NCBI RefSeq assembly: GCF_001652585.1
Contig: NZ_LWLG01000003.1
Location: 30,001-62,000, forward strand
Length of the DNA stretch: 32,000 nucleotides
Direction: 5' to 3'
Origin: Thermosulfurimonas dismutans
GTDB taxonomy: Bacteria > Desulfobacterota > Thermodesulfobacteria > Thermodesulfobacteriales > Thermodesulfobacteriaceae
Part shown: in pieces, positions 1 through 21,704 of the stretch
Position numbering within the stretch: the first letter of the stretch is position 1
Layout: each line of letters opens with the position of its first letter
Notes under the pieces: model-generated
The model's input: the letters and a program-made list of their open reading frames with translations, nothing else
The model's database searches: none
Told to the model about the DNA's origin: nothing
Made by a program: the position numbers and the translations under genes

Positions 1-1242
1 TTGAGAATTAAGCCCTGCGGTCTTGCGAGCGAACCTGGGGGCATGACCCAGCGAAGCTGCGTTTATTTCGGCGCCCGCTATGTGCTTGGGCCGATACGGG
101 AGGCGGTGCATCTGGTGCATGGCCCCGTGGGCTGCGGTTACTATGGAGCTATGGTCCGGGGGGAGGCCAAAGACCTCTTTGGAACCGCACTTACAGCCGG
201 AGAGATTATTTTTGGAGGTCTTGATAAACTGAGGAAGGCCCTGCATGAGGCCTTTGCCCTTAGACCCTCGGCCCGCGGGGCCTTTTTGTACGCTACCTGC
301 ACAACGGGGCTTATCGGGGAAGATCTTGCAGGCCTTGCCCGCGAAATCGAGAGAGAATCTGGACGCAGGATCGTGGTGGTGGACTGTCCGGGGTTTTCCG
401 GAAAGAGCCAGGCCGGGGGCCACGCTGTGGCCTACCGGAGTTTACTTAACTTGGTTCGGCCCTTTTCCAAGGCCGAGCACCCCACGGTAAACCTCATCGG
501 AGAGTACAATGTAGCTGGAGAGGCCCGGGAGATAAAACGACTTCTTGAGAAACTTGGGGTTAAGGTCCACACGGTGCTTACCGGTGATACCCGTTTTTCG
601 GAGATAGAGCGACTTTCCCGGGCTCATCTGAATCTCCTTTTCTGCGGTTCAACCGCTAGGGAGTTTGCCTCGGCCCTGAAGGAGCGATTTGGTCTTCCCT
701 ACCTAAAGGTCTCCTTTTATGGGCTTTCGGCCGTGGGGGCTTCTCTTCGGAAGGTAGGAGAGGCCTTGGGCCTCTCTTCTGACAAGGTGGAGGATCTGAT
801 TCGGGAGGAGGAGACCCGGACCTTTAGGGAGATAAGGTCCTGGCTTAAACTCTTTTCCGGAAAAAGAGTACTGGTGGTACTTGGGGCCGGGAGACTGGGA
901 CCCTTAGGGAGAATGCTTAGAGAACTCGGCTTTGAGGTCATAGGGGCGGCTTCGGTCTTCGGGAGCTCCGAAGATCACCAAGAGGCCGCTCCCTTTTCCG
1001 GTTTTCTTACCGATGATCCCGGAGATGACGAATTTGAAAGGGCCCTTTCTATGCTTAAGCCCGATCTCGTGATCACCAACGCCCGAGAGCAGTGGCGAGC
1101 GGTAAAACTTGGTTTTCCCACCCTCTCTTTTCCTCAAGAGCGCAGACGCGGCCCCTACACCGGTTATCAAGGTTTTGTCAATTTTGTTTATAGTTTGGTC
1201 CGCGTTCTTCGGGCTCCGGTGTGGCGCCTCAAAGCCCTATAA
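1..1242 (+). CDS. nifE: nitrogenase component-1 family protein, NifE-like (5'-partial, open to the window edge)
   Basis: The ORF runs from base 1. It carries NifD/E-family signatures: SCVYFGARYVLGPIREAVHLVHGPVGC, NLIGEYNVAGE, LNLLFCGSTAREFA...SFYG, and a C-terminal PQERRRGPYTGYQGF...APVW. The QER motif (no His at the NifD His442-equivalent position) and the CGS/SFYG context resemble NifE more than NifD. A nitrogenase-like paralog (Nfl/Mar type) cannot be excluded. Confidence 0.6.
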   Translation: MRIKPCGLASEPGGMTQRSCVYFGARYVLGPIREAVHLVHGPVGCGYYGAMVRGEAKDLFGTALTAGEIIFGGLDKLRKALHEAFALRPSARGAFLYATCTTGLIGEDLAGLAREIERESGRRIVVVDCPGFSGKSQAGGHAVAYRSLLNLVRPFSKAEHPTVNLIGEYNVAGEAREIKRLLEKLGVKVHTVLTGDTRFSEIERLSRAHLNLLFCGSTAREFASALKERFGLPYLKVSFYGLSAVGASLRKVGEALGLSSDKVEDLIREEETRTFREIRSWLKLFSGKRVLVVLGAGRLGPLGRMLRELGFEVIGAASVFGSSEDHQEAAPFSGFLTDDPGDDEFERALSMLKPDLVITNAREQWRAVKLGFPTLSFPQERRRGPYTGYQGFVNFVYSLVRVLRAPVWRLKAL

Positions 1243-1350
1243 CCTGAACCGCAAAAAGTTCCCTCGCCAAAGACCTTACCTACTTATAAAACCATCTCGA
1301 AAGGATCATTTTCGGCCTTTTTAAGTTACTTTTTGTCACTTTTGTAAACT

Positions 1351-1369
1351 ACATTATTAACAATAATGT
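1351..1369. promoter_or_regulatory. perfect 8-3-8 inverted repeat ACATTATT-AAC-AATAATGT, a candidate activator site upstream of the amtB promoter
   Basis: The palindrome was read directly from the sequence. It lies about 70-85 bp upstream of the -24 GG of the putative sigma-54 promoter, a typical position for an enhancer-binding-protein site. It does not match the NtrC consensus. Confidence 0.3.
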
Positions 1370-1436
1370 CATAAAAATCGTTAAGCTGCTTTCATTAAAT
1401 CCTTCTAGGGCTATTCGTTACAGTAATTTTCATATT

Positions 1437-1451
1437 TGGCATAAATCTTGT
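1437..1451 (+). promoter_or_regulatory. sigma-54 (-24/-12) type promoter candidate for amtB-glnK
   Basis: TGGCATAAATCTTGT compared with the consensus TGGCAC-N5-TTGC: the GG (1438-1439) and the -12 dinucleotide (1450-1451, GT instead of GC) have the correct N10 spacing. It sits about 37 bp upstream of the amtB ATG, in front of a strong RBS (GGAGGAGG). Confidence 0.5.
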
Positions 1452-1487
1452 ATTCAAGATTGGTAAAAACGAAGGAGGAGGTAGGGT

Positions 1488-2870
1488 ATGGAGAGTGGCA
1501 GGTTTTATTCGGGTAAAAGGGTTGGGCCGATTTTATCGGCGGTGTTTTTACTGGGCTCAGGGATGGCCCTGGCCGGGGACCCCACCGGGGCCGAAACCCT
1601 GAAGTCCGACCCCGGGCTTCCGGTGGACTATGTCTGGGTGTTGGTGTGCGGATTCTTGGTGATGTTCATGCAGGCGGGCTTTGCCTGTGTGGAGGCCGGT
1701 TTCTGCCGGGCCAAGAATGCCACCAATCTCTTAACCAAGAACCTCATGGACTTTGTGGTGGGGGCACTGGTTTTCTGGGCCGTGGGTTATGCCCTGATTA
1801 CCGGCACGGACTGGAAGGGCCTCATCGGGACTTCGGGCTTTTTCCTCTCTGGTGAGGGTTACGATGTCGGCAACTACCTTTCCTTTTTCTGGCAGATGGT
1901 CTTTGCCGCCACGGCGGCGACCATCGTCTCAGGGGCCGTGGCCGAACGTATCAAGTTTCAGGCCTATCTCCTTTATTCCATAGCGATTACCGGTTTCATC
2001 TACCCGGTTTACGCCCACTGGGTCTGGGGCGGGGGTTGGCTTTCAAAACTGGGCTTCGGACTCGGACACCTAGACTTTGCGGGCTCCGGTGTGGTGCATG
2101 CCGTAGGAGGTTTGGTGGGGCTTGCCGGGGCCATCGTTCTCGGGCCGCGTTTTGGAAAGTTCGACAAAAACGGCAAACCCCGGGCCATTCCCGGGCACAA
2201 CATCCCGTTGGCTGCGCTCGGGGTCTTCATCCTCTGGTTTGGCTGGTACGGCTTTAACCCCGGTTCCACCTTTTCTGCCCATCACCTGCGCATCTCGGTG
2301 ATCGCGGTGAATACCACCCTTGCGGCCGCGGCGGCCTCCCTTACAGCCCTTATCCTCGTGCTCGCCAAGACCCGAAAGTTTGATCTCGGTATGGCCCTGA
2401 ACGGCGTGCTTGCTGGCCTGGTGGCCATTACCGCTCCCTGTGCCTGGGTTGAGGCCTGGGCCGCGGTGGTGATCGGTATCGTCGCTGGCATCATCCTTGT
2501 GGCTGGGGTCTATTTCCTTGAGGCTATAAAGGTTGATGACCCGGTGGGAGCCGTCCCGGTACACGGTTTTAACGGCCTATGGGGTCTTATCGCCGTAGGT
2601 CTGTTTGCCGATGGAACTTACGGAAACTACGCCATCGAACCCCCCTTTGTGAAGGGACTCTTCTACGGGGGCGGGGTAGATCAGCTCATCGCCCAGGTGA
2701 TCGGGGCGGTAGCGCTTTTCGTCTGGGCCTTCGGTGCGGGGCTTGTGCTCTTCAAGGTGCTCGATCTCGTAGTCGGCATCCGGGTCTCTCCGAAGGAGGA
2801 GATTCAGGGGCTTGATCTATTTGAACACGGTACCCCGGCTTATCCCGAATTCTATACCGTAAGGAGGTAA
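1488..2870 (+). CDS. amtB: ammonium transporter (Amt family)
   Basis: 460-aa polytopic membrane protein with an N-terminal signal-like segment. Amt signatures are DFAGSGVVHAVGG, WFGWYGFNPGS and VHGFNGLWG. It is immediately followed by a P-II gene. Confidence 0.97.
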   Translation: MESGRFYSGKRVGPILSAVFLLGSGMALAGDPTGAETLKSDPGLPVDYVWVLVCGFLVMFMQAGFACVEAGFCRAKNATNLLTKNLMDFVVGALVFWAVGYALITGTDWKGLIGTSGFFLSGEGYDVGNYLSFFWQMVFAATAATIVSGAVAERIKFQAYLLYSIAITGFIYPVYAHWVWGGGWLSKLGFGLGHLDFAGSGVVHAVGGLVGLAGAIVLGPRFGKFDKNGKPRAIPGHNIPLAALGVFILWFGWYGFNPGSTFSAHHLRISVIAVNTTLAAAAASLTALILVLAKTRKFDLGMALNGVLAGLVAITAPCAWVEAWAAVVIGIVAGIILVAGVYFLEAIKVDDPVGAVPVHGFNGLWGLIAVGLFADGTYGNYAIEPPFVKGLFYGGGVDQLIAQVIGAVALFVWAFGAGLVLFKVLDLVVGIRVSPKEEIQGLDLFEHGTPAYPEFYTVRR

Positions 2871-4096: not shown

Positions 4097-4117
4097 GGTA
4101 TTATCCTCGACTCCGAA

Positions 4118-4166
4118 GAAAGGGCCCGGTTTGGTCTTGTAGGCCAAACCGGGCCCTTTCGCTTTA
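4118..4166 (+). terminator. rho-independent terminator candidate downstream of the porin gene
   Basis: There is a perfect 17-bp stem, GAAAGGGCCCGGTTTGG (4118-4134) with CCAAACCGGGCCCTTTC (4144-4160), and a 9-nt loop. It is followed by GCTTTATAAT, a weak T tract. Confidence 0.6.
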
Positions 4167-4179
4167 TAATTCAGCCTTT

Positions 4180-4273
4180 AGGCCGGGGTCGGAATCGAAC
4201 CGGCCAGCTACCCCTATTCTGGGTGCCCACAGGGTTTGCAGCCCCGGGGGAGCACCAGCCCCCTCTCCCGGCC
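4180..4273 (-). tRNA. tRNASec-shaped long-variable-arm tRNA with GCA (Cys) anticodon, no encoded CCA
   Basis: The minus-strand sequence is GGCCGGGAGAGGGGGCTGGTGCTCCCCCGGGGCTGCAAACCCTGTGGGCACCCAGAATAGGGGTAGCTGGCCGGTTCGATTCCGACCCCGGCCT. Acceptor: GGCCGGG pairs with CCCGGCC (7 bp), followed by U (4180) at the discriminator position. D-arm: 6-bp stem GGGGGC/GCTCCC (one G.U) with a 4-nt loop TGGT. Anticodon arm: CGGGG/CCCTG with loop CTGCAAA, giving anticodon GCA. Variable region: about 25 nt, foldable into a stem of roughly 7 bp. T-arm: GCCGG-TTCGATT-CCGAC with one C.A mismatch. An alternative 8/5 reading starts at 4274 (G.U closing pair, discriminator A4179). A TATAAT box on the minus strand (plus-strand coordinates 4285-4290) lies about 11 nt upstream. 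Confidence 0.75.
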
Positions 4274-5359: not shown

Positions 5360-6754
5360 ATGAAATGGGATAAAAGGAAAATTCTTGAGATCGATCGGAA
5401 ACATATCTGGCATCCTTTCACCCAGATGAAGGATTACGAAGACCGGGACCCTCCGGTCATCGTGGAAGCCCAGGGGGTGAAATTCCGAACCATAGAGGGT
5501 CGTGAGCTCTACGATACCATCTCCTCCTGGTGGACCAATGTGCACGGGCATCTCCATCCGCTCCTAAATGAGGCTATCCGGGAACAGCTCACCCGACTGG
5601 ATCATGTCAATTTTTCCGGTTTTACGCATCCGTACGCCGTGGAAGTAATCGAGAGACTCCGGAGGTTTCTTCCTCCAGAGCTTTCCCGGTTCTTTTTCTC
5701 GGACAACGGTTCCACTGCGGTGGAGGTGGCCCTCAAGATGGCCTTTCAGTTCTGGCAAAACCGGGGTTTTACCCGCAGGACCCGCTTTGTTTGCCTGGAG
5801 AACGGCTATCACGGAGACACCATTGGGGCCGTGAGCGTGGGTGGGGTGGATCTCTTCTTCAAGCTCTACAAGCCCCTGACCTTTAAGACCTTTCGGGCTC
5901 CGGCGCCTTACTGCTACCGCTGTCCCGAAAATCTCGACCGCAATTTTACACTGGAGGCTTCGAAACCTTCTTGTAATTTTCGATGTCTTGAGGAGTTAGA
6001 GAAAATTTTTAAAGAATATCATGAAGAGATCTGTGCCGTGATCGTGGAGCCCAGGTTGCTGGCAGCCGGAGGTATGATTGTCTATCCCGCCGAATACCTG
6101 CGGGGTTTGATAGAGTTGGCTCGGCGATACGAGGTTCTCACCATCTTCGATGAGGTGGCTACTGGGTTTGGCCGTACCGGCACCATGTTCGCCATGGAAC
6201 AGGCGGGGGTGGTACCGGATATCCTCTGTCTGGCAAAAGGACTTACCGGTGGAGTGCTCCCTATGGCCCTTACAGTGACCACCGAGCGGATCTTCCAGGC
6301 CTTTTACGCTGATTACCTTGAGGGTAAAACCTTTTACCACGGCCATTCCTTTACGGCCAATCCCATCTGTTGCTCGGTGGCCATAGCCAACCTTAAACTC
6401 TTTGAGGATGAAAAGCCCCTGGAGAAGGGTAGGGAGGTCCGGAACTATTTCCATCGGCGTCTCGTGGAACTCTTTTCGGATCGTCCCTATGTGGGAGACA
6501 TCCGCTACCTTGGATACGTGGGGGCCGTGGAACTAGTGGCGGACCGAAAGACCAAGAAACCCTTCCCACCGGAAAAGCGCGTGGGTTTTCGCATCTACAT
6601 GACCTCCCTTGAGAGGGGGCTGGTTCTTCGTCCCCTTGGGGATGTGATCTACTGGTTCCTGCCCCTCTGTGTTACCAAAGAGGAGGTGGAGGAGATCCTC
6701 ACCCAGAGTCTGGCAGTCATTGAGGAAGTGGTCACGGATCTGTCTGCCGGCTAA
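5360..6754 (+). CDS. bioA: adenosylmethionine-8-amino-7-oxononanoate aminotransferase
   Basis: Class-III aminotransferase with a BioA-type N-terminus (HIWHPFTQM, SSWWTNVHGH), FDEVATGFGRTG, and the PLP lysine context LCLAKGLTGG. It sits in the bio cluster. Confidence 0.95.
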   Translation: MKWDKRKILEIDRKHIWHPFTQMKDYEDRDPPVIVEAQGVKFRTIEGRELYDTISSWWTNVHGHLHPLLNEAIREQLTRLDHVNFSGFTHPYAVEVIERLRRFLPPELSRFFFSDNGSTAVEVALKMAFQFWQNRGFTRRTRFVCLENGYHGDTIGAVSVGGVDLFFKLYKPLTFKTFRAPAPYCYRCPENLDRNFTLEASKPSCNFRCLEELEKIFKEYHEEICAVIVEPRLLAAGGMIVYPAEYLRGLIELARRYEVLTIFDEVATGFGRTGTMFAMEQAGVVPDILCLAKGLTGGVLPMALTVTTERIFQAFYADYLEGKTFYHGHSFTANPICCSVAIANLKLFEDEKPLEKGREVRNYFHRRLVELFSDRPYVGDIRYLGYVGAVELVADRKTKKPFPPEKRVGFRIYMTSLERGLVLRPLGDVIYWFLPLCVTKEEVEEILTQSLAVIEEVVTDLSAG

Positions 6755-6759
6755 AAGCT

Positions 6760-7911
6760 ATGCTAGAGGACATTCGCCGGGAACTTGCGGGCCTCGAAGA
6801 CAAAGGCCGGCTCCGGACTCTTCGCACGATTTCGGAGAGGCGTGGTCCTTTCGTGGAGATCGAGGGTCGGCGGCTCCTTAATCTGGCCTCGAACGACTAT
6901 CTGGGTTTAAGTGTTGGGCTTGAGCCGGATAAAATCCTTGAGATCCTTCGTGAATTCGGAACGGGTGCCGGAGCCTCGAGACTCCTTTCTGGAAACCACC
7001 TCTACTATGAAATCCTGGAGGAGACTCTGCGGTCCCTTTACGGGCGCCCGGCTCTGGTTTTCGCAAGTGGATATCTCGCAAACCTGGGGGTGCTCTCCGG
7101 GCTTCTCGGTCGCCGGGACGTGGTCTTCGCCGACAAGCTGATTCACGCCAGTCTTATCGATGGTCTGCGCCTCAGCGGAGCCACCTTCTACCGCTATCCT
7201 CATCTCAATCTCGAACTCTTGGAGGACCTTCTCAAGGAGCACCGGTCCCGTTTCCGACGGGCCGTGATCCTAACCGAATCCGTCTTCAGCATGGATGGAG
7301 ACTTTCCGGATCTGAGAACCTTGGTGGCTCTGAAGAAGCGTTACGAGGCCTTCCTGATGGTGGACGAGGCCCATGCGGTAGGGGTGTTCGGGAAGAGGGG
7401 GCTTGGTCTTTCCGAGGAAGAGGGCCTTCTCGAGGAGATAGATGTTCTGATAGGAACCTTTGGAAAAGCCCTGGGAAGTTACGGGGCCTTTGTGGTCACC
7501 CATGAGGAGATTCGTCGTCTCCTCATCTCGCGGGCGCGATCTTTCATCTTCACTACCGCCCTTCCGCCGGTGGTGGTGGCGGCTTCTCTGAGCGGGTTGA
7601 GGAGAGCCGTTGACATGGAGCGGGAAAGGCGTAAGCTCCGGGAACTTTCCCGGAAATTACGGCGCGAACTCCGCTTGTCTCGAGGAGGGCTTCAAGACGA
7701 GGTCCCCATCGTGCCGGTGATTATCGGAGAAGATCGGAAGGCCCTTGAGGTCTCGAAAAGGCTCTTTGAGGCCGGCTTCTTTGCCCCGGCCATCCGTCCC
7801 CCCACCGTCCCAGAAGGCACAGCCCGACTGCGGCTTTCCCTTTCGGCCTCCATGGACTGGAGCCACCTTGAACCCCTGATCGGAACTTTGAGGTCGCTGG
7901 CGTGCGCCTAG
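6760..7911 (+). CDS. bioF: 8-amino-7-oxononanoate synthase
   Basis: Alpha-oxoamine synthase motifs are present: NLASNDYLGL, SVFSMDGD, VDEAHAVG, GTFGKALG. It lies between bioA and bioG. Confidence 0.95.
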   Translation: MLEDIRRELAGLEDKGRLRTLRTISERRGPFVEIEGRRLLNLASNDYLGLSVGLEPDKILEILREFGTGAGASRLLSGNHLYYEILEETLRSLYGRPALVFASGYLANLGVLSGLLGRRDVVFADKLIHASLIDGLRLSGATFYRYPHLNLELLEDLLKEHRSRFRRAVILTESVFSMDGDFPDLRTLVALKKRYEAFLMVDEAHAVGVFGKRGLGLSEEEGLLEEIDVLIGTFGKALGSYGAFVVTHEEIRRLLISRARSFIFTTALPPVVVAASLSGLRRAVDMERERRKLRELSRKLRRELRLSRGGLQDEVPIVPVIIGEDRKALEVSKRLFEAGFFAPAIRPPTVPEGTARLRLSLSASMDWSHLEPLIGTLRSLACA

Positions 7912-8564
7912 CTCTCCTGGGAAACCTTGAGGCCGAGGAACTGATCGTCTTCTTTGCCGGCTGGGCCATGGATGAACGGCCCTTTCACGGACTCTGTGGA
8001 GAGGAGACCGCCGTGGCTGTGCTCTACGATTACCGGGATCTTGAGCTTCCCGAAATTCCTAAGGGATACAGCCGGGTCTATATCTTGGCCTGGTCCCTTG
8101 GAGTCTATGCGGCTTTGAAAAATCTTTCTTCCCTCGATGGAGAAATCCTTTTCCTTGCAGGCACCGGCGCTTTCTCTCATCCCGAATTTGGGATCCATCC
8201 CCGCGTGATGAACCTCACCCTTAAAGGCCTTGAGGAAAGGAGAGAGAAAAGTTTGCTGGCCTTTTACGCCAACATGTTTTCGGGAGAGCTGGGGCTGGAG
8301 ATTTTCCTTGAGAACCAACCCCAGAGAAACCTCTCCGAGGTTGTTGAGGAACTGAAGATGGCGGCCGAGAGGGGGCCCCTCTTTCCTTCAAATTTCAGTA
8401 AGGTCCGGGCCGTCTGTACTTTGAGGGATCGCATTGTGCCCTTTGAGGCCCAATTAAGATACTGGGAAAGGGTAGGGGTCCCGGTGAGGACCTTGGAGGC
8501 CGGCCATTTCCCCTTCTATCGCTTTTCTTCCCTTAAGGAGTTATTTTTTAGGGAAGATGTATAA
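7902..8564 (+). CDS. bioG: pimeloyl-ACP methyl ester esterase, BioG (DUF452) type
   Basis: From memory of the Haemophilus BioG pattern, the matches are LIVFFAGWAMD, YDYRDLEL, ILAWSLGVY (nucleophile Ser), GTGAFSHPEFGIHPRV and LKGL. GTG start overlapping the bioF end by 10 nt. Confidence 0.82.
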   Translation: MRLALLGNLEAEELIVFFAGWAMDERPFHGLCGEETAVAVLYDYRDLELPEIPKGYSRVYILAWSLGVYAALKNLSSLDGEILFLAGTGAFSHPEFGIHPRVMNLTLKGLEERREKSLLAFYANMFSGELGLEIFLENQPQRNLSEVVEELKMAAERGPLFPSNFSKVRAVCTLRDRIVPFEAQLRYWERVGVPVRTLEAGHFPFYRFSSLKELFFREDV

Positions 8565-13475: not shown

Positions 13476-15695
13476 ATGAGCAAGAAAGGCTTGATCGTAG
13501 TGGAATCGCCTACCAAGGTGCGGACCATCAAAAAGGTGGTGGGCCGAGATTACGAGGTCTGCGCCTCGGTGGGGCATGTGAAGGATCTTCCCAAAAACCG
13601 GCTCGGAGTGAAGATCGAAAACGGCTTTAAACCCGAATACGAGATCATAAGGGGCAAAAAGAAGGTCCTTACGGAGATCAAGAAGCTCGCCCGGCAAGCC
13701 GAAACCATTTACCTTGGGCCAGATCCTGACAGGGAAGGGGAAGCCATCGCCTGGCACATCGCTGAGGAACTGCAAAGTCTCAAGAAACCCATCAAACGGT
13801 TGCTTTTCTATGAGCTTACCACCCGGGGTATCAAGGAAGCTCTCTCCCAGCCGGTGGAACTTGATCCTGACAAATACGAAGCCCAGCAGGCTCGTCGGGT
13901 CCTCGATCGGCTGGTGGGATATAACCTCTCTCCGCTACTTTGGGAAAAGGTCAAACGCGGTCTTTCGGCCGGTCGGGTCCAGTCCGTAGCCCTAAGGCTT
14001 ATTTGTGAAAGGGAACGGGAAATTCAGGCCTTCCGGCCAGAGGAGTACTGGACCATCGAGGCAGAGCTTCGGACCCCTGAAGGTGAAACTTTCAGGGCCA
14101 AGCTGGAAAAGCATGCCGGAAAGAAAGTTCAACTTCGAAACCAGGAAGAGGCTGAAAGGGCGGTGGCCGAGCTTTCCCGGCTTTCCAAGGAAGAAAGATT
14201 TTCGGTTTCCAAGGTGACCAAAAAGGAAGCCCGCCGGAATCCTCCCCCTCCTTTTATTACTAGCACCCTTCAGCAGGAGGCCTTCAGACGTTTCCGATTT
14301 CCGGCCAAGAAGACCATGTATCTGGCCCAGAGGCTTTATGAAGGGGTGGATATCCCCGGCGAGGGACCGGTGGGCCTTATCACCTACATGCGTACAGATT
14401 CCGTGCGTGTGGCCGAGGAAGCCAAAAATGTGGCCCGCGAGATCATTGCCTCGACCTTTGGAAAGGATTTTCTCCCTAACAAACCGCCGGAATACAAGGC
14501 CCGTAGCACCGCGCAGGAGGCCCATGAGGCCATAAGGCCTACTCGTTTTGACCTTCCTCCGGAAAAGCTGAAGAACGTGCTCTCGTCAGACGAATATAGG
14601 CTTTATGAGCTCATCTGGCGTCGGTTCTTGGCTTCTCAAATGGTCCCAGCACGTTTTGAGGTTACCAAGGTCGAGGTCACCGCTGATTCCTGGCTTCTTA
14701 TCTCCCAGGGGAGGCGTCTGGTGCATCCCGGTTTTCTGGCCGTCTATGATCTACAGGAGGAGAAGGAATTTGGCCTTCCTCGTCTTGAGGAAGGCCTTTC
14801 CCTCAAGGTTTTGAAAATCGAGCCTCAACAGCACTTTACTAAACCGCCGGCCCGGTACACCGAAGCCACTCTTATTCGGACCCTGGAGGAAAAGGGTATC
14901 GGGCGACCATCCACCTACGCCCAGATCGTGAGTACCATCAAGGAAAGGGGATATGTGGAGACGGTCTCGGGTAGTCTCAAACCTACGGAACTTGGCTTTT
15001 TGGTAAACGATCTTTTGGTGGCCTCTTTCCCGGACATCATCGAGCCCGAATTCACCGCCCGCATGGAGGAGTTTCTGGACGAGATCGCCGAGGGCAAGGC
15101 CGAAAAGGAACAGGTTTTACGATCCTTTTACGAAGCTTTTTCCAGGAAGTTGGATTCGGCTGCGGCTGAAATGGCGGATCTGAAAGCCGGCATTCCGAGC
15201 GGAGTCAAGTGCCCGGAATGCGGAGCGGAGATGCTCCTAAGGGTGGGTCGGGCCGGGCCATTTCTGGCCTGTAGTCGTTATCCGGATTGCAAGGTGACCG
15301 GAGATTACGAAAGAGACGAGACCGGAGCCCTCAAACTTGTTCGCAAGGAAGATCAGGTTAACGGTCAGTGTCCAGAGTGCGGCGGGCCTTTGGTCCTAAG
15401 AAGGGGGCGGTTCGGCGAATTTTGGGCCTGTGGGCGTTATCCCGAGTGTCGTTACACCCGTCCGGTGGGTACGGGTATTGCTTGCCCCAAGGAAGGCTGC
15501 GATGGCGAGATCGTAAAACGGCGTTCTAAAAAAGGCAAAATTTACTACGCCTGTCTTAGGGCTCCAGAGTGCGATTTTATTTTGTGGGACGAACCGGTGG
15601 CCGAGGAATGTCCAGAATGCGGGGCCCCCTTTGTGGCCATGAAGTCAGGACGGCATTCCCGGAAATACTGTCCCTTCTGTAAGGCCATCCTATGA
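13476..15695 (+). CDS. topA: DNA topoisomerase I with four C-terminal zinc ribbons
   Basis: TOPRIM N-terminus (LIVVESPTKVRTI), DPDREGEAIAWH, and the active-site region ITYMRTDS. The C-terminus carries four ribbons: CPECG...C..YPDC, CPECG...C..YPEC, CPKEGC...C...PEC and CPECG-x16-CPFC. Confidence 0.97.
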   Translation: MSKKGLIVVESPTKVRTIKKVVGRDYEVCASVGHVKDLPKNRLGVKIENGFKPEYEIIRGKKKVLTEIKKLARQAETIYLGPDPDREGEAIAWHIAEELQSLKKPIKRLLFYELTTRGIKEALSQPVELDPDKYEAQQARRVLDRLVGYNLSPLLWEKVKRGLSAGRVQSVALRLICEREREIQAFRPEEYWTIEAELRTPEGETFRAKLEKHAGKKVQLRNQEEAERAVAELSRLSKEERFSVSKVTKKEARRNPPPPFITSTLQQEAFRRFRFPAKKTMYLAQRLYEGVDIPGEGPVGLITYMRTDSVRVAEEAKNVAREIIASTFGKDFLPNKPPEYKARSTAQEAHEAIRPTRFDLPPEKLKNVLSSDEYRLYELIWRRFLASQMVPARFEVTKVEVTADSWLLISQGRRLVHPGFLAVYDLQEEKEFGLPRLEEGLSLKVLKIEPQQHFTKPPARYTEATLIRTLEEKGIGRPSTYAQIVSTIKERGYVETVSGSLKPTELGFLVNDLLVASFPDIIEPEFTARMEEFLDEIAEGKAEKEQVLRSFYEAFSRKLDSAAAEMADLKAGIPSGVKCPECGAEMLLRVGRAGPFLACSRYPDCKVTGDYERDETGALKLVRKEDQVNGQCPECGGPLVLRRGRFGEFWACGRYPECRYTRPVGTGIACPKEGCDGEIVKRRSKKGKIYYACLRAPECDFILWDEPVAEECPECGAPFVAMKSGRHSRKYCPFCKAIL

Positions 15696-15895
15696 GATCT
15701 TATAGACCGTGTGAATCTCCGGAAGGATTCCAGGAAGACCTGATCTGTCCGGTATGTGGTGGTCCGGCGGAGCTTTACGGCCGGTGAGCCGGAGCCAGGG
15801 TGAGGTGTCTCACCTGCGGAAGGGACTGGCCAGCCGCTTGGTTTAGGGAAGAGATAGAGGCCCTTAAAGAAAGGTGGCTGAAAGATTTCTCGTAA
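15692..15895 (+). CDS. candidate small TopA-type zinc-ribbon protein with an in-frame UGA at codon 32 (recoding candidate or disrupted gene)
   Basis: The ATG overlaps the topA stop (ATGA). The translation is MRSYRPCESPEGFQEDLICPVCGGPAELYGR-[UGA 15785-15787]-AGARVRCLTCGRDWPAAWFREEIEALKERWLKDFS-stop. The CPVC-x16-CLTC spacing equals that of the last TopA ribbon (CPEC-x16-CPFC) only if the UGA is counted as a residue. There is no homology evidence, and a conventional annotation would stop at 15787. Confidence 0.35.
15796..15816 (+). promoter_or_regulatory. SECIS-like RNA hairpin downstream of the in-frame UGA
   Basis: CAG(G)GUGAG-GUGU-CUCACCUG: the 6-bp perfect upper stem GGUGAG/CUCACC starts 11 nt after the UGA. 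The apical loop is GUGU, with G and U at +23/+24 counting the U of UGA as +1. Two further base pairs follow below a bulged G. No T tract follows, so it is not a terminator. Confidence 0.35.
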
Positions 15896-16569
15896 AACCC
15901 TCGCCTGGTTTTACCTGTGGCCCCAGGGCTCTCCTGGTCCTTACGGAACCGGATTTTCGGTTTTTCGGAAAGGTCTTTCGATTTGCCCGCCGAACTAGAC
16001 TATTCCTTTCGGAGGTCCTTTATGACGAAAGGGGAGTCCTCTTAGGACCTGCTCTGGGGGCTCCTCAGGTGGCCATGCTTCTGGAAAATCTCCGGACCGC
16101 GGGGGTAAGGGAGATTCTCCTTTTAGGTTGGGCCGGGGCCTTGACCTCGAAGATCCCCCTCAGAAGTATCTTTCTTTCCCAAAAGGCCTTGGCTCTTGAA
16201 GGTACATCTCGGCTTTATTTTCCGAGAAGAAGGGTCTTTTTCCCGGAAAGGAATCTTTTTCAAAAGTTTAAGGCCAACCTCCTCCGGTTGGGCCTCCCTT
16301 TTAAGGAGGGGGCTGTGGTTTCAACGGATGCCCCTTACCGAGAAGACGAAGTTTTCCTCGAAAAATACGGCCGACGATATGAGGCCGTAGATATGGAGAC
16401 CTCGGCGGCCTTGGCCGTAGGAGGGGCCCTTGAACTTTCGGTGGTCGCCTGTCATTTCATTTCCGATAGGCTTACCTTGGCCGGAAGGCAAACCGTATCA
16501 TCAAGAGAGCTTAGAGCCTGTCGAGAAGCCCTTATTGAACCCTTAAGGACTTTTCTGGAAGGTGAATGA
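15874..16569 (+). CDS. nucleoside phosphorylase/nucleosidase family (PNP_UDP_1) protein
   Basis: 231 aa with GPALGAPQVAMLLENL (a phosphate/ribose loop-like motif) and VDMETSA, characteristic of the PNP/MTA-nucleosidase/futalosine-hydrolase fold. The specific substrate cannot be assigned. GTG start. Confidence 0.6.
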   Translation: MAERFLVKPSPGFTCGPRALLVLTEPDFRFFGKVFRFARRTRLFLSEVLYDERGVLLGPALGAPQVAMLLENLRTAGVREILLLGWAGALTSKIPLRSIFLSQKALALEGTSRLYFPRRRVFFPERNLFQKFKANLLRLGLPFKEGAVVSTDAPYREDEVFLEKYGRRYEAVDMETSAALAVGGALELSVVACHFISDRLTLAGRQTVSSRELRACREALIEPLRTFLEGE

Positions 16570-16584
16570 GGCTAAAATAAGAAC

Positions 16585-17460
16585 ATGCGAAATCCATTTG
16601 AAGTTTTGGGTTTATCTCCGAAGATCGTAAAGGAGCTCGACGAGGAGAGTCTTTTCAGGTTGGTTAAGGCCTGCTACCGGGCTCTTCAGCAGGTTTACCA
16701 TCCGGATCTCGCGAGCGGTTCTAGGGAAAAGGCCCTGGAATTGAACTTGGCCTTTGAGGCCCTCAATCTTTCTAAAAACCCCGAATCATTTCGTCGTCAT
16801 CGTCAGGCTTACGTTAGGCGTCTTTCCCGTAAGACCTTGAGGAATCGTATGGAAGCTCTAAGCCTGAAACTCGGAAGACTTTTCAGGGAAAAGGTGATCC
16901 TGGAGGAGGCTTTTTGGGGAGAACTTGTCTCTCGAGCCAGGGAATCGGAGCACCTCCTCTCGCCCCTGCCCCGAAACTTGAGGCTTCACCTCTTCGATCT
17001 TGCCACCAAATATCATTTGCCTTTCCCGGTTTTCGGTCGTAGAGCCCCCTTTAAGGAATTTTTGTTTGATGAGGAAGGATATCTTTATCTGAAATATGCT
17101 AGAGGTAAGACTCTCAGGAAGGTCTCCCGGATAAAAATGATAGGCTGTGTCCCCCGGGAAAAAATTGAACCCTGGATGCTCCTAGAGAAGAGGCCTGGGA
17201 ATGAAAGTCTAGTGGCTGAAGAATATATGAAGGCCGAGACTTTTCGCCGAGCCTGTCTCCCTTTTCTCAAAACTAGACTCGAACCCAATAGCTACCTGTT
17301 TTCCTTCCGGAATGAAGATTTTTCCCGCGTCTACCTTGAAGGTCTGATCCTTCGCCTTTCTCCCCTTTGCCCAAAATCTATCACAAATGTAAAGCTATCC
17401 TCACAAAAATTACAAATTTGTGAAGAGAAAACCTCTCTTTTGTCTTTCCCTGAGTCTTGA
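16585..17460 (+). CDS. J-domain (DnaJ-like) protein with an uncharacterized C-terminal region
   Basis: The N-terminus is NPFEVLGLSP...YRALQQVYHPDL, carrying the HPD tripeptide, followed by LAFEALN. No Gly/Phe region or zinc-finger domain follows. Confidence 0.8.
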   Translation: MRNPFEVLGLSPKIVKELDEESLFRLVKACYRALQQVYHPDLASGSREKALELNLAFEALNLSKNPESFRRHRQAYVRRLSRKTLRNRMEALSLKLGRLFREKVILEEAFWGELVSRARESEHLLSPLPRNLRLHLFDLATKYHLPFPVFGRRAPFKEFLFDEEGYLYLKYARGKTLRKVSRIKMIGCVPREKIEPWMLLEKRPGNESLVAEEYMKAETFRRACLPFLKTRLEPNSYLFSFRNEDFSRVYLEGLILRLSPLCPKSITNVKLSSQKLQICEEKTSLLSFPES

Positions 17461-17883
<423 letters not shown>

Positions 17884-17886
17884 GGA

Positions 17887-20295
17887 GTGCTTTCGGAGGT
17901 AGTTTCCGAAAGTTCTGGTCCTCAAAGGGAGCGGTGCCTATATCTGGATCGTTTTGTTAAAGATTTATGGCTTCCCCTTTTCAAAGAGACGGGCACCGTG
18001 GAGGACAATCTTTCGCTGGTGGCCCTTGGGGGTTATGGGGAAGGGCTTCTTTGTCCGGGTTCGGATGTAGATCTCCTTTTTCTGCACCAAGGGCTTTCGG
18101 AAAACATTTTGGCAAGATTCGTAGAAAAGGTGGTCTATCCCCTGTGGGATTATCGTTTCGAGGTCAGCTATCGGGTCTTTACCCCCAGGGAGGCCTTGGA
18201 TTTTGCGGCTGAAGATCCCACTTTTTTCACTTCTCTTCTTTCGGCACGGCTTCTTTGCGGCTCAGAAGCGCTTTTCCAGGAACTCCTGGAAGGATTTGAG
18301 GGGCTTCTTTCTGGCCGGGAAAAGGAGTTCTACGAGAGGCTAAAGGCTTTGAGGGAGGCCCGGCTTTCGCGTTTAGGGGAGGAAGTTTATTTTCTGGAGC
18401 CCCACCTAAAGGATGGGCCTGGCGGTCTTCGGGACTTCCAATTTTTTCTCTGGGCAGGCAGGATCATTTTCGGTTTCGAAAAACTTTCAGATTTTACTGA
18501 GGCCGGTCTCATAAGTTTGGAGGAAGAAAAGAAAATTTTGGCCGCCGCCGAATTTTTGCGACGGGTAAGGGAGGAACTGCATATCCTTTGTGCTCGCAAA
18601 GAGGATCGTCTCTTTATGGAATATCAACCTGAGATCGCGGCCCGTTTGGGGTTCGGATCCGGTGATCGGGCCGGTACCGAAGCCTTCATCTCTAAACTAT
18701 TTACCGCTTTTTCAACTATCAAGGAGGCTGTGGAAAACCTTATTGAGGAAATAGAAGATCTTTTCTTTACCTCGCAAAGAAAGAAACGTCTTACCCTTAT
18801 TCAACCGGTTCCATCCGGGCCTTTTCTTCGCCGTATTTTTGAGACTCTGGCCCGAGAAGGTCGGCCCTTTGATCGCAATCTCAAGCGTTATCTTCGGAGC
18901 CGTAAATGGTCGGAAAAGGATCTGGTGGACCTCCGGGAGGCCTTTTCTGAGCTTCTGACCCTTCCTTATAGTCTTACCATGTTGCACACTATGCGAGAGA
19001 CGGCTATCCTGTTTCGGCTCATACCGGAGTTTAAAGACCTTTGTGGAAGGGTACAGTACGATGTTTACCACTTGTATGCCTTAGATGAACACTTGTTTCT
19101 TACAATCTCGGCCTTGCACCACCTTAAGAAAGAAAAGTCGGAACTTTGGACGTCCATCGAAAATGAGAAGATCCTTTATTTCGCAGCCCTGCTTCACGAT
19201 CTAGCCAAAGGAGAGCCTGATCACGCCCGCCGAGGGGCCGAAAAGGTTCTTAAAATAGCTTCCCGCTTTAATTTTCAAGCCGAAGAAATTAAGGAGATAG
19301 CCTTTCTGGTAGAACAGCATCTTCTGCTGATGGACACGGCCTTGAGAAGGGATCTAGCTGAAGAAAAGGTCATTGAGGAAGTGGTACTTCGGACGGAGAG
19401 GGTCGAAAGGCTTACCGCTCTCTACTTCCTTACTCTTGCGGATGCTATGGCCACCGGGCCTAGGGCTTTGAATGCCTGGAAGGCCGGTCTCCTTGAAGAA
19501 CTTTTCTCAAAGGCCAAAAAGCTGTTTGAAAACCGTATGGAAAGGGAGAGTCTGAAGGATCTTTCTCAAAAGAGGACCAAACTCTATGAAAAGTTTCGAC
19601 CCGAGCTAGTGGATCGCATCCCTTTACCTCAGCTCGAAATTTATGATGTGGGAGAACTCGAAGAATTACTTTCTTTGGTTCAGGGATTTCTTTCCGAGAA
19701 CGCCTTATTTCTTTTTGCGGAGCATCGTCTTAACGGAGTTGTTAAGGTTTTTATCGTAACAAAAGATAAAACTGGCCTTTTTTCTGATATTGTAGGGACT
19801 TTCTTCGCTTCTGGTTTCGACATCCGGAGGGCGCGGGCTTTTACTTGGGCTGGAGGCCTAGCGGTGGACGAATTCTGGGTGGAACCTCTGGTAGAAGGAG
19901 CAGAGCTTTCAAACTGGAAGGGACTGTTTGAAAAGGTCCTTGCTGGCAAGGAGTATACCGAAGACCTTGTGCAGCGGAGAAAGGAAGCCTTTTTGAGACT
20001 GGGCCCTAAGATTCCTTTGGTGTCCTTTCCGGAGATTAGAATTGACCAGGAGGCTTCTGACTTTTATACTCTTTTGGAAATTTATGCTCCAGATAAGCCG
20101 GGTTTACTATATGAGATAGCTTCTATCATTTCAGAACAAAAATTTATAATTGGTAAGGCTATTCTTTCTGAAAAAGAGGATCTAGTGGCCGATATTTTTT
20201 ATCTTCAGACCCAAGAAGGAGAAAAGCTTTCGGCCGAGGAGGTCGAAGGCCTGGTTCAAAAACTCCAAATAAAACTAAAGGAGGTTGTATCATGA
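17887..20295 (+). CDS. glnD: [protein-PII] uridylyltransferase/uridylyl-removing enzyme
   Basis: 802 aa with the nucleotidyltransferase motif [19 protein letters not shown], an HD domain ([10 protein letters not shown]) and two C-terminal ACT-like repeats. GTG start 4 nt after the glnB stop. Confidence 0.92.
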
Positions 20296-21704
20296 CACCC
20301 AAAGAGGTAATGGAATTCGCCAAGAAAAACGGTGTTCGTATGGTTGATCTTAAGTTTCTAGACCTTCCCGGCATTTGGCAGCACTTTACGGTGCCCATCG
20401 AGCAGTTTTCCGAAGAGTCCTTTGAAGAGGGGTTCGGTTTTGACGGTTCCTCTATTCGTGGCTGGCAGGAGATTCATGAAAGCGACATGTTGGTGATCCC
20501 CGATCCCAACACGGCCATCATAGATCCCTTTTTTGAAGTGCCTACTCTTTCTCTGATTTGTAACGTAGTAGATCCTATTACTCGTGAGCCTTATTCTCGT
20601 GATCCGCGCTATGTAGCCCAGAAGGCCGAGGCCTACCTCAAGAGCACCGGTATTGGCGATACGGCCTATTTTGGTCCGGAGGCCGAATTCTTTATCTTTG
20701 ACGATATTCGCTACGACTCTGCGGCCCATTTTGCGTATTATTTCGTGGACTCCATTGAGGGTATCTGGAATACAGGCCGAGAGGAGTGTCCCAACCTGGG
20801 TTACAAACCCCGACACAAAGAGGGCTACTTCCCGGTGCCGCCCTCTGACAAGACTCAGGATCTGCGTACCGAGATGACCCTCTATCTCCAGAAGGTGGGC
20901 ATTGAAGTCGAGTGTCATCACCACGAGGTTGCTACCGGCGGTCAGGCCGAAATTGATATGCGTTTTGCTCCGCTGGTCAAGATGGGAGACAATCTCATGT
21001 GGTTCAAGTATGTCTTGAAGAACGTGGCTTACAAACACGGTAAAACCGTAACCTTTATGCCTAAGCCTCTTTTCGGGGACAACGGCTCTGGTATGCACAC
21101 CCATATGAGTATCTGGAAGGGGGACACCAACGTTTTTGCCGGGGATCGCTATGCCGGACTTTCTGAAACCGCTCTTTACGCTATCGGTGGCATCCTGAAG
21201 CACTGCCGGGCGGTCTGTGCCTTTACCAACCCCACTACCAACTCCTACAAGCGGCTTACTCCTGGTTTTGAGGCCCCGGTGAACCTCTGTTACTCCAGCC
21301 GGAACCGTTCGGCGGCTATTCGTATTCCCATGTATAGCGCCAGCCCCAAGGCCAAACGGATCGAGTTCCGCACTCCGGACCCCTCCTGTAACGGCTACCT
21401 GGCTTTTGCCGCCATGTTGATGGCTGCTCTCGACGGTATCGAAAACCGAATTGATCCGGGAGAGCCCATGGACAAGGACCTTTACAGCCTGCCTCCCGAG
21501 GAGCTCAAGAATATTCCCACCACCCCGGCTACTCTAGAAGAGGCCCTTCAGGCCTTGGAGGAGGATCATGAGTTCTTGATGAAGGGAGATGTCTTTACCG
21601 AAGACCTTATTGAGACCTGGATCAAGTACAAACGGGAAAACGAGGCCGACCAGGTGCGTCTCCGTCCGCATCCCTACGAGTTCTTCCTCTACTTCGATAT
21701 CTAA
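20292..21704 (+). CDS. glnA: glutamine synthetase type I
   Basis: 470 aa with GS-I motifs [27 protein letters not shown] and [10 protein letters not shown]. The adenylylation-loop-like sequence [10 protein letters not shown] is present. The ATG overlaps the glnD stop (ATGA). Confidence 0.97.

What the first reader, a model, noticed from the sequence alone, without database searches (positions are those of the whole stretch)
15692..15895. Tiny TopA-like zinc-ribbon ORF, translationally coupled to topA, interrupted by an in-frame UGA that preserves ribbon spacing
Seen in the sequence: an ATG overlapping the topA stop (ATGA at 15692-15695) opens a 31-codon ORF that ends at UGA (15785-15787). The same frame then stays open for another 35 codons, to TAA at 15893-15895. 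The first half contributes one zinc knuckle (CPVCGG) and the second half the other (CLTCG). Neither half alone is a sensible domain. With the UGA counted as one residue the motif is C-x2-C-x16-C-x2-C, identical in spacing to the last TopA ribbon encoded just upstream (CPECGAPFVAMKSGRHSRKYCPFC). The residues around the UGA (LYGR-UGA-AGAR) also mimic the GRAG/GRFG turn of TopA ribbons 1 and 2. Inference: the UGA position is, or recently was, a sense position. The possibilities are Sec or another recoding event, stop-codon readthrough, or a fresh nonsense mutation or sequencing error in a duplicated detached topoisomerase zinc ribbon. An in-frame GTG at 15800 preceded by GGAG would allow independent initiation of the second half, which is a competing explanation.
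Basis: partly seen in the sequence, partly recalled or inferred. Interest (0 to 1): 0.7.

Follow-up and report, generated by a model that had tools for sequence, protein, structure and literature searches.

The report
Small zinc-ribbon selenoprotein gene after topA
The "interrupted" mini-gene after topA is most likely an intact gene for a 67-residue zinc-ribbon protein whose in-frame UGA encodes selenocysteine; it belongs to an already catalogued but functionally uncharacterised selenoprotein family (OS_HP3 / NCBIfam NF041197).

Summary
ATGA overlaps the topA stop at 15692-15695, an in-frame TGA lies at 15785-15787, and the frame stays open to TAA at 15893-15895.

The TGA is not an error or a pseudogene lesion. 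It sits at the same codon in three related Thermodesulfatator-like genomes and in five more distant homologues. Five other homologues carry TGT or TGC there, giving a Sec/Cys pair.

A hairpin starts 10 nt after the UGA: a 7-8 bp stem with a GUGU loop, 17 nt from the UGA to the loop. It meets the published bacterial SECIS criteria and is codon-for-codon conserved. It shows a compensatory G-C to A-U change in AT-rich relatives, and the closest Cys-form homologue has lost it.

The joined protein matches NCBIfam NF041197, "dual CXXC motif small (seleno)protein", which is OS_HP3 of Zhang & Gladyshev 2007. Cys or Sec at the UGA column is worth about 10 bits to that match.

A specific relationship to TopA ribbons is not supported. 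The fold is a generic zinc ribbon with the Sec at the β-hairpin tip, followed by a C-terminal helix. TopA coupling is specific to this lineage.

Sec machinery could not be checked in 32 kb. The only related gene found is a selC*-type tRNA with a GCA anticodon. The protein's function remains unknown.

The parts
13476..15695 (+). topA (739 aa, type IA topoisomerase with C-terminal zinc ribbons). Its TGA stop overlaps the start of the small gene.
   Evidence: ORF; Pfam Topoisom_bac 431.7 bits, Zn_ribbon_Top1 125.7 bits, Toprim.
15692..15895 (+). Complete selenoprotein gene: 67 codons including Sec32, plus the TAA stop. It is a member of the dual-CXXC small (seleno)protein family (NF041197 / OS_HP3).
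15692..15695 (+). ATGA start/stop overlap with topA (translational coupling).
   Evidence: One search shows an ATGA overlap in L002, a TGATG overlap in L003 and a 10-nt gap in L001.
15746..15757 (+). First metal knuckle, Cys19-Pro-Val-Cys22.
   Evidence: C19 and C22 invariant in 18 family members.
15785..15787 (+). In-frame UGA, the predicted selenocysteine codon (Sec32).
   Evidence: TGA at the same column in L001-L003 and in L085, L086, L094, L099 and L100. TGT or TGC there in five Cys-form homologues. The NF041197 score drops from 36.9 to 26.9 bits when C at this site is replaced by X.
15788..15824 (+). SECIS-type stem-loop inside the coding sequence. Upper stem GGGUGAG (15798-15804) pairs with CUCACCU (15809-15815). 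The apical loop is GUGU (15805-15808). Weaker lower pairs are 15789-15791 with 15822-15824 and 15795 with 15818. The same bases encode A-R-V-R-C-L-T-C, the second knuckle.
   Evidence: bSECIS criteria from PMC13188914. Stem codons identical in all four Thermodesulfatator-like genomes. Compensatory G-C to A-U change in L085/L086. Hairpin lost in the Cys form L090.
15806..15817 (+). Second metal knuckle, Cys39-Leu-Thr-Cys42.
   Evidence: C39 and C42 invariant.
15845..15892 (+). C-terminal amphipathic acidic helix (REEIEALKERWLKDFS).
   Evidence: AF2 model of homologue P0002 has a helix at residues 51-70. The E/D-x-I-E-x-x-K-E pattern is conserved in the family.
15874..16569 (+). Downstream gene of the PNP_UDP_1 (nucleoside phosphorylase) superfamily. 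Its start overlaps the last 22 nt of the small gene.
   Evidence: The same neighbour is present in L001-L003.
4181..4273 (-). tRNA-Sec-like gene with a GCA (Cys) anticodon and U73 (selC* tRNA-Cys type). This is context only, as an indirect marker of a Sec-using genome. It is not the tRNA that would read this UGA.
   Evidence: Mukai et al. PMC5389517.

Best explanation
Coordinates 15692-15895 hold one gene, not two fragments. Ribosomes finishing topA start at the overlapping ATG. At UGA 15785-15787 the hairpin 10 nt downstream acts as a bacterial SECIS: it recruits SelB carrying Sec-tRNA(Sec), so selenocysteine is inserted and translation continues to TAA 15895. The hairpin has a 7-bp stem and a GUGU loop, and it also encodes the second CxxC knuckle. 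The product is a 67-residue cytoplasmic protein. It has a four-Cys zinc-ribbon (or rubredoxin-like) metal site of the form C-x2-C-x16-C-x2-C. The invariant Sec lies on the tip of the beta-hairpin between the two knuckles in a G-x-U motif, and an acidic amphipathic helix follows. It is a new member of the predicted selenoprotein family OS_HP3 / NCBIfam NF041197. What is shown: the conserved UGA, the Sec/Cys pairing, the SECIS-type structure tied to the UGA, and the family match. What is inferred: actual Sec insertion, metal binding, and the biochemical role. The role I think most likely is that the exposed selenolate serves as a redox-active or nucleophilic group that the ribbon delivers to a partner.
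For: 1. The TGA falls at the identical alignment column in the window, L001, L002 and L003, whose TopA proteins are 67-74% identical to the window's. The same holds in five more distant homologues.
2. Amino acids are conserved on both sides of the TGA while synonymous sites vary.
3. Five homologues carry TGT or TGC at that column. In an 18-member alignment this column is invariant, together with the four Cys and Gly30.
4. All 18 members match NF041197. The window protein scores 36.9 bits with C at the site and 26.9 bits with X.
5. The hairpin meets the four published bSECIS criteria.
6. The four stem codons are identical in all four Thermodesulfatator-like genomes, against 4 of 15 for other invariant residues with more than one codon.
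7. One upper-stem pair changes G-C to A-U through two synonymous changes in L085 and L086, and two lower-stem pairs also covary.
8. The closest Cys-form homologue keeps the amino acids KVRCLSC but has lost the hairpin, which folds at 0.0 kcal/mol.
9. UGA is otherwise an ordinary stop here: 9 of 26 long ORFs use it, including topA.
10. The window carries a selC*-type tRNA, and every selC*-bearing genome examined by Mukai et al. had selA, selB, selC and selD.
11. The family is listed as a selenoprotein family in PMC1976440 and PMC13188914.
Against: - No selA, selB, selD or UCA-anticodon tRNA-Sec lies within the 32 kb window. The Sec trait of this genome is therefore inferred, not shown.
- The window protein scores 3 bits below the curated NF041197 cut-off (36.9 against 40).
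- A hairpin of this loose type follows 8.4% of all TGA triplets in the window, so the hairpin on its own is weak evidence.
- The covariation rests on few sequences. In the shuffle control, 33 of 500 shuffles reached the observed score.
- No member of the family has been tested experimentally for selenium, according to the papers read.
- The biochemical function has no support from a conserved gene neighbourhood.
Confidence: 0.87

Rival explanations
1. The UGA is decoded, but not (or not only) as Sec. Cys, Trp or Arg would be inserted by a near-cognate tRNA or by a selC*-type Cys-tRNA, giving a five-Cys protein, for example under selenium limitation.
For: Cys forms of the family exist, so Cys is functionally tolerated. 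selC* tRNA-Cys species with a UCA anticodon can read UGA as Cys in some bacteria (PMC5389517), and this window carries a selC*-type gene.
Against: The selC* gene here has a GCA anticodon, not UCA, so it cannot pair with UGA. The conserved SECIS-type hairpin, and its loss in the Cys-codon homologue, point to SelB-dependent decoding. If Cys were the intended residue, a UGY codon would serve without any RNA element.
Confidence: 0.07
2. There are two separate short products. Translation stops at UGA to give a 31-aa peptide, and a second 31-aa peptide starts at GTG 15800. Alternatively only one of the two is real.
For: GTG 15800 is preceded by GGAG in the window. Gene callers in public data do call the halves separately (P0014, P0016, P0018-P0020).
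Against: The GGAG is absent from L001-L003, and the GTG is GTA in L085 and L086. Neither half holds a complete metal site. Cys-form homologues are continuous single ORFs. The family model spans both halves, and each half alone scores 15.4 bits or less, or nothing.
Confidence: 0.03
3. The ORF is a pseudogene, sequencing error or recent nonsense mutation in a ribbon duplicated from topA.
For: The ORF lies next to topA and has the same C-x2-C-x16-C-x2-C spacing as the last TopA ribbon.
Against: The TGA is present in nine independent sequences from different assemblies, and both halves are under purifying selection. There is no PF01396 hit, and hhalign aligns only 11 columns. Family members elsewhere are not linked to topA.
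Confidence: 0.01
4. The main role is regulatory. Inefficient UGA/SECIS decoding makes the mini-ORF a selenium-dependent gate, and ribosomes reach the overlapping start of the downstream PNP_UDP_1 gene (15874) only when Sec is inserted.
For: The chain topA, small ORF and PNP-like gene is tight: an ATGA overlap at 15692 and a 22-nt overlap at 15874-15895. The same arrangement occurs in L001-L003.
Against: The peptide sequence itself is conserved across the family in unrelated gene contexts, including Cys forms that have no gate. This argues that the protein is the functional product. Coupling to the PNP-like gene is confined to one lineage.
Confidence: 0.02

Closest known systems
OS_HP3 / NCBIfam NF041197 'dual CXXC motif small (seleno)protein' (Zhang & Gladyshev 2007, PMC1976440; listed in PMC13188914)
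   Same: It is a small protein of about 55-80 aa with two CxxC motifs 16 residues apart and one Sec (or Cys) between them. A SECIS lies directly after the UGA. It occurs in anaerobic sulfate-reducer lineages. The HMM match covers model positions 1-46 of 53, and Cys/Sec at the UGA column is worth about 10 bits.
   Different: The window sequence scores 36.9 bits, just under the curated cut-off of 40. Its local motif is G-R-U, whereas the review lists 'RxU'. Here the gene is translationally coupled to topA and overlaps a PNP_UDP_1 gene, a context not seen in the other members examined. The 2007 paper reported no Cys homologues, and five true Cys forms were found here.
Bacterial SECIS elements (E. 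coli fdhF type; bSECIS consensus of Zhang & Gladyshev as summarised in PMC13188914)
   Same: The stem-loop lies within the coding sequence immediately 3' of the UGA. It has a 4-nt apical loop starting with G-U, a 7-8 bp upper stem, 17 nt between the UGA and the loop, and a hairpin energy of -8.4 to -11.5 kcal/mol. From my own knowledge, the minimal fdhF element sits 11 nt after the UGA, a very similar geometry.
   Different: There is no bulged U in the upper stem, unlike fdhF (own knowledge). The lower stem is weak in the window sequence. The hairpin also encodes a metal-binding knuckle, so RNA and protein constraints coincide.
TopA C-terminal zinc ribbons (Pfam PF01396 Zn_ribbon_Top1)
   Same: It shares the generic zinc-ribbon topology, a CPxCG first knuckle, a G-R-x-G-like turn, and the same x16 spacing as the last ribbon of the adjacent TopA. 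E. coli TopoI ribbons appear among the weak Foldseek matches (E 0.5-0.9).
   Different: There is no PF01396 match. hhalign aligns only 11 columns. The best sub-threshold Pfam match is Lar_restr_allev PF14354 (about 22 bits against a gathering score of 28.6). It has an extra C-terminal helix and a Sec.
TFIIS / Rpb9 / RPC10-type zinc ribbons
   Same: These are the best, though non-significant, structural matches (E 0.14-0.2). From my own knowledge, in those proteins the functional residues sit on the tip of the beta-hairpin between the knuckles. The Sec sits at that position here.
   Different: No sequence relationship was found. The tip carries Sec rather than an acidic pair. The resemblance is an analogy of architecture only.

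Membership tests
NCBIfam NF041197 / OS_HP3 dual-CXXC small (seleno)protein | Significant match to the family HMM across both CxxC motifs | tested here: met
   Window protein: E 3e-9, model positions 1-46 of 53. All 18 collected relatives match at E<=1e-3.
NCBIfam NF041197 / OS_HP3 dual-CXXC small (seleno)protein | Score at or above the curated cut-off (40 bits) | tested here: inconclusive
   The window protein scores 36.9 bits, 3 bits short. Its orthologues L001 (42.6) and L003 (41.9) and homologue P0001 (44.2) pass. L002 (29.1) and P0002 (39.3) do not. The cut-off is an operational threshold; orthology to passing members is clear at 53-62% identity.
NCBIfam NF041197 / OS_HP3 dual-CXXC small (seleno)protein | Two CxxC motifs with a single Sec/Cys between them at a fixed position | tested here: met
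   C19, C22, U/C32, C39 and C42 are invariant, and the x16 spacing has no gaps in 18 sequences. Replacing C with X at the site costs 10 bits.
Bacterial selenoprotein gene (UGA = Sec) | In-frame UGA conserved in orthologues, with coding conservation on both sides | tested here: met
   (nine distinct TGA-bearing sequences).
Bacterial selenoprotein gene (UGA = Sec) | Cys-containing homologues aligning Cys to the UGA | tested here: met
   P0006, P0011, P0013, P0015 and P0022 carry TGT or TGC at the column.
Bacterial selenoprotein gene (UGA = Sec) | SECIS stem-loop meeting the bSECIS criteria: loop 3-9 nt with G in its first two positions, upper stem 4-16 bp, 16-37 nt from UGA to loop, MFE <= -7.5 kcal/mol | tested here: met
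   Loop GUGU, stem 7-8 bp, spacing 17 nt, hairpin energy -10.1 kcal/mol (criteria).
Bacterial selenoprotein gene (UGA = Sec) | Genome encodes selA, selB, selC (UCA anticodon) and selD | not testable with these tools
   None of these lies in the 32 kb window. The genome itself was not found in the collections. The only indirect support is a selC*-type tRNA together with the literature statement.
Bacterial selenoprotein gene (UGA = Sec) | Selenium demonstrated in the protein | not testable with these tools
   This needs 75Se labelling or mass spectrometry.
TopA-type zinc ribbon (Pfam PF01396) | Match to the PF01396 model, or profile similarity to the adjacent TopA ribbons | tested here: not met
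   No PF01396 hit at E<=10 for any of four orthologues, although TopA itself scores 125.7 bits. hhalign aligns 11 columns at 54.6% probability.
selC* tRNA-Cys (Mukai et al. 2017), for the tRNA at 4181-4273 | tRNA-Sec-like covariance-model match, GCA or UCA anticodon, and U73 discriminator | tested here: met
   RF01852 scores 53.3 bits against a gathering score of 47. The anticodon loop reads CUGCAAA where the consensus is CUUCAAA. The base after the acceptor stem is U. The detailed acceptor/T-arm geometry was not resolved.

The most novel reading that the evidence does not exclude
In this lineage the Sec-tipped ribbon may have been recruited as a functional partner of TopA, and its synthesis may depend on selenium. 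It could act as a trans-acting extra ribbon or as a redox- or selenium-sensitive modulator of the topoisomerase. UGA/SECIS decoding would also gate translation of the overlapping downstream PNP_UDP_1 gene. That would link selenium status to DNA topology or nucleoside metabolism.
Probability: 0.06. Interest if true: 0.7.

Novelty: new member of a known kind. Interest (0 to 1): 0.3.

Why it matters
This resolves an apparent broken mini-gene as a bona fide recoded gene that standard gene callers miss or mistranslate. Public predictions either split it at the UGA or render Sec as Trp by using genetic code 4.

It also extends a family that was predicted in 2007 from two sequences with no Cys homologues. 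The family now has a set of nine TGA forms and five true Cys forms, with a hairpin that appears and disappears together with the UGA. That is the classical comparative signature of a real selenoprotein.

The protein is among the smallest selenoprotein architectures: a four-Cys ribbon with one invariant Sec on an exposed hairpin tip. No structure, partner or function is known, so it is a tractable target for biochemistry. It does not reveal a new coding mechanism or a new kind of system.

Tried and rejected
- Word-indexed protein search with the joined 67-aa sequence found nothing. The four-sequence alignment had to be used instead.
Homologues P0001 and P0002 were used in their place.
- The metagenome scan with A1 chose poor patterns. 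It returned only a duplicate of L003 and the C-terminal ribbons of anaerobic ribonucleotide reductase (L082-L084), which share only CPVCGGPAEVY and are unrelated.
- P0004 (ARVRCLTHG) lies among small phage-like genes and is not an orthologue. P0003 and P0005 are generic ribbons.
- Rfam has no family matching the hairpin.
- A search for a second in-frame-TGA gene in the window, which would have shown Sec use directly, found none.
- The exact TopA sequence is not on record, so the source genome could not be identified beyond a Thermodesulfatator-like member of Thermodesulfobacteriota.
- Gene-neighbourhood comparison gave no conserved partner.
Full report
**Observation.** topA (13476-15695; Pfam Topoisom_bac, Toprim and three Zn_ribbon_Top1 stretches) ends in TGA within ATGA at 15692-15695. 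The ATG opens a frame that reads MRSYRPCESPEGFQEDLICPVCGGPAELYGR, then TGA (15785-15787), then AGARVRCLTCGRDWPAAWFREEIEALKERWLKDFS, then TAA (15893-15895). The C-x2-C-x16-C-x2-C count is correct, and so is the GTG at 15800 preceded by GGAG.

**Orthologues.** A genome-collection scan with TopA showed the window comes from a relative of Thermodesulfatator in the Thermodesulfobacteriota. The best TopA identities are 74%, 70% and 67% (L001-L003), and the genome itself is not on record.
- All three relatives carry the same small ORF directly after topA, with an in-frame TGA at the same codon. The sequences read ...AELVGR*NRARVRCLTCA......AELVGR*AQARVRCLTCG... and ...AVIVGR*AQARVRCLTCG....
- The start overlaps the topA stop in L002 (ATGA) and L003 (TGATG), and lies 10 nt downstream in L001.
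- The codon table shows synonymous variation at conserved residues on both sides of the TGA: C19, G23, A26 and G30 before it, and P47, E54, E61 and E65 after it.
- Both halves are therefore under protein-level selection in one frame. A fresh nonsense mutation or a sequencing error is excluded.

**Family.** With C substituted for the UGA, all four proteins hit NCBIfam NF041197.2, "dual CXXC motif small (seleno)protein".
- The window protein scores 36.9 bits, L001 42.6, L003 41.9 and L002 29.1, against a curated cut-off of 40.
- With X at the site the window score falls to 26.9 bits. The model therefore expects Cys/Sec exactly at the UGA column.
- The 2026 review PMC13188914 equates NF041197 with "hypothetical protein OS_HP3". 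OS_HP3 was predicted in the Olavius symbiont metagenome by Zhang & Gladyshev 2007 from two Sec sequences and no Cys homologue, with a SECIS shown in their Fig. 5E (PMC1976440).
- A member in Desulfosarcina widdelii is mentioned in PMC12013277.
- None of the papers read gives a function or an experimental test.

**Wider family and the Sec/Cys pair.** The alignment search and an exhaustive profile search of 1.84 billion representatives found 18 proteins at E<=1e-3.
- Several show "W" at the site. All five that I checked (P0001, P0002, P0007, P0009, P0010) carry TGA in the DNA. The gene callers had used genetic code 4 on short AT-rich contigs.
- Five others (P0006, P0011, P0013, P0015, P0022) carry genuine TGT or TGC.
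- Further hits are half-proteins that end or begin at the TGA (P0014, P0016, P0018-P0020).
- In the 18-sequence alignment the invariant residues are C19, C22, G30, U/C32, C39 and C42, and the x16 spacing never varies.
- All 18 match NF041197.

**SECIS.** Ten nt after the UGA lies GGGUGAG-GUGU-CUCACCU (15798-15815).
- It satisfies the bSECIS criteria quoted in PMC13188914: a 4-nt loop beginning G-U, a 7-8 bp stem, 17 nt from the UGA to the loop, and a hairpin energy of -10.1 kcal/mol. The six close sequences range from -8.4 to -11.5 kcal/mol.
- Such a hairpin alone is weak evidence, because 8.4% of TGA triplets in the window have one by these loose rules. The comparative data carry the argument.
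- The four stem codons (Val GTG, Arg AGG, Leu CTC, Thr ACC) are identical in all four Thermodesulfatator-like genomes. Elsewhere only 4 of 15 invariant residues with more than one codon keep the same codon.
- In the AT-rich homologues L085 and L086, Val GTG becomes GTA and Leu CTC becomes CTT. This converts one G-C pair to A-U while keeping both amino acids.
- RNAalifold adds a lower stem with two more covarying pairs.
- In the closest Cys-codon homologue (L090) the peptide KVRCLSC is retained but the hairpin is gone, folding at 0.0 kcal/mol.
- More distant TGA forms, such as L094, have a different hairpin at the same distance.
- The statistics are limited by the small sample: 33 of 500 shuffles reached the observed covariation score.

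**Is UGA otherwise a stop, and is Sec machinery present?**
- UGA terminates 9 of 26 long ORFs in the window, including topA and the two downstream genes, so there is no global reassignment.
- The window holds no selA, selB or selD and no other candidate in-frame-TGA gene.
- Rfam finds a tRNA-Sec-like gene at 4181-4273 on the minus strand (53.3 bits). Its anticodon loop is CUGCAAA, giving anticodon GCA, and the discriminator base is U.
- That is the signature of selC* tRNA-Cys described by Mukai et al. (PMC5389517). They found these genes in Thermodesulfobacteria, among other groups, and report a complete selA/B/C/D set in every selC*-bearing genome.
- This is indirect support only. This tRNA cannot read UGA.

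**Protein architecture.**
- The AF2 model of homologue P0002 has mean pLDDT 73.8, and 81-89 in the core.
- It gives strand, knuckle, strand 28-32, turn 33-38, strand 39-42, knuckle, strand and helix 51-70.
- The Sec column (residue 35 there) lies in the turn, at the tip of the beta-hairpin opposite the metal site. From this topology I infer that it is not a ligand of the same metal in a monomer.
- Foldseek finds only generic zinc ribbons, none significant: RPC10/Rpb9/TFIIS type, aIF2-beta and TopoI.
- No relative has a solved structure.
- The best Pfam match is a sub-threshold hit to Lar_restr_allev. PF01396, the TopA ribbon model, does not hit, and hhalign against the four TopA ribbons aligns only the first knuckle. 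A specific origin from TopA is not supported.

**Context.**
- In this lineage the gene sits between topA and a PNP_UDP_1-superfamily gene whose start overlaps its last 22 nt. L001-L003 have the same arrangement.
- In L090 the order is metK, ahcY, the small gene, then an FtsJ-type methyltransferase. In L096 the small gene lies after a YjeF-type gene and next to a lactamase_B gene. In L095 it lies near a hemerythrin gene.
- No neighbour is conserved across the family, so context gives no functional lead. SAM-related genes flank the small gene in L090, and a PNP_UDP_1 gene flanks it in the window lineage. I note this but cannot evaluate it.

**Mechanism and verdict.**
- The best explanation is a single gene decoded by SelB/SECIS-dependent Sec insertion (confidence about 0.87).
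- The product is a metal-stabilised ribbon presenting one invariant selenolate on an exposed hairpin tip, followed by an acidic helix that probably serves as a docking surface.
- The most likely role is as a redox-active or nucleophilic module acting on a partner. This last step is inference.
- The rivals are each unlikely: Cys or other insertion at UGA, two separate peptides, a pseudogene, or a purely regulatory gate.
- The finding is real, but it is a new member of a known, predicted family and not a new phenomenon.

Noticed in passing
window 4181-4273 (-): A tRNA-Sec-like gene (Rfam RF01852, 53.3 bits) has anticodon GCA (Cys) instead of UCA and a U73 discriminator. ARAGORN does not call it. 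It fits the selC* tRNA-Cys class of Mukai et al. 2017. Its neighbours are a TorF-like porin gene and an MnmL/YtqA radical-SAM gene, with no selB* or cysS* nearby. A terminator-like hairpin follows at about 4117-4161.
   Followed up: partly
P0001, P0002, P0007, P0009, P0010 (loci L085, L086-L088, L094, L099, L100): Public protein predictions of this family show Trp at the Sec position because gene callers applied genetic code 4 to short AT-rich contigs. The DNA has TGA in all five cases checked. Other entries (P0014, P0016, P0018-P0020) are halves cut at the TGA.
   Followed up: yes
window 15805-15808 and 15794-15817: The apical SECIS loop GUGU contains the UGU codon of Cys39, and the stem encodes V-R and L-T of the second metal knuckle. 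RNA and protein constraints coincide, which explains why ARVRCLTC is invariant at both the amino-acid and the nucleotide level in this lineage.
   Followed up: partly
window 15874-15895; L003 about 6380-6405: The downstream PNP_UDP_1-superfamily gene starts inside the last 22-26 nt of the small ORF, in both the window and L003. topA, the selenoprotein gene and the PNP-like gene therefore form a chain of overlapping reading frames. Ribosomes that stop at the UGA would be about 87 nt upstream of that start.
   Followed up: no
L090/L091/L092 1354-4796; L086 300-1121: In the AT-rich lineage the family member lies after metK and ahcY and directly before an FtsJ-type methyltransferase. In the window lineage it precedes a PNP_UDP_1 gene. 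From my own knowledge, that superfamily also contains the MTA/SAH nucleosidases. A link to SAM metabolism is possible but may be coincidence.
   Followed up: no
L082-L084 (metagenome contigs): The C-terminal ribbon of anaerobic ribonucleotide reductase-like proteins (…CPVCGGPAEVYSRITGYYRPV…) shares an 11-residue string with the first half of the small protein. The match is confined to the first knuckle, and I judge it generic or due to chance.
   Followed up: partly
window 7902-8564 (+): A 220-aa ORF embedded in the biotin operon (bioA, bioF, this ORF, bioC, bioD, with bioB on the opposite strand) has no NCBIfam match. It may be an unrecognised pimeloyl-ACP methyl ester esterase (BioH/BioG analogue).
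   Followed up: no
window 1-2870 and 17545-21704: The window also holds nitrogen-metabolism genes: a NifE/NifD-like gene (well below the family cut-offs), an amt ammonium transporter, and then glnB (PII), glnD and glnA. These look ordinary. ORF 16585-17460 has only a weak DnaJ-domain hit.
   Followed up: no
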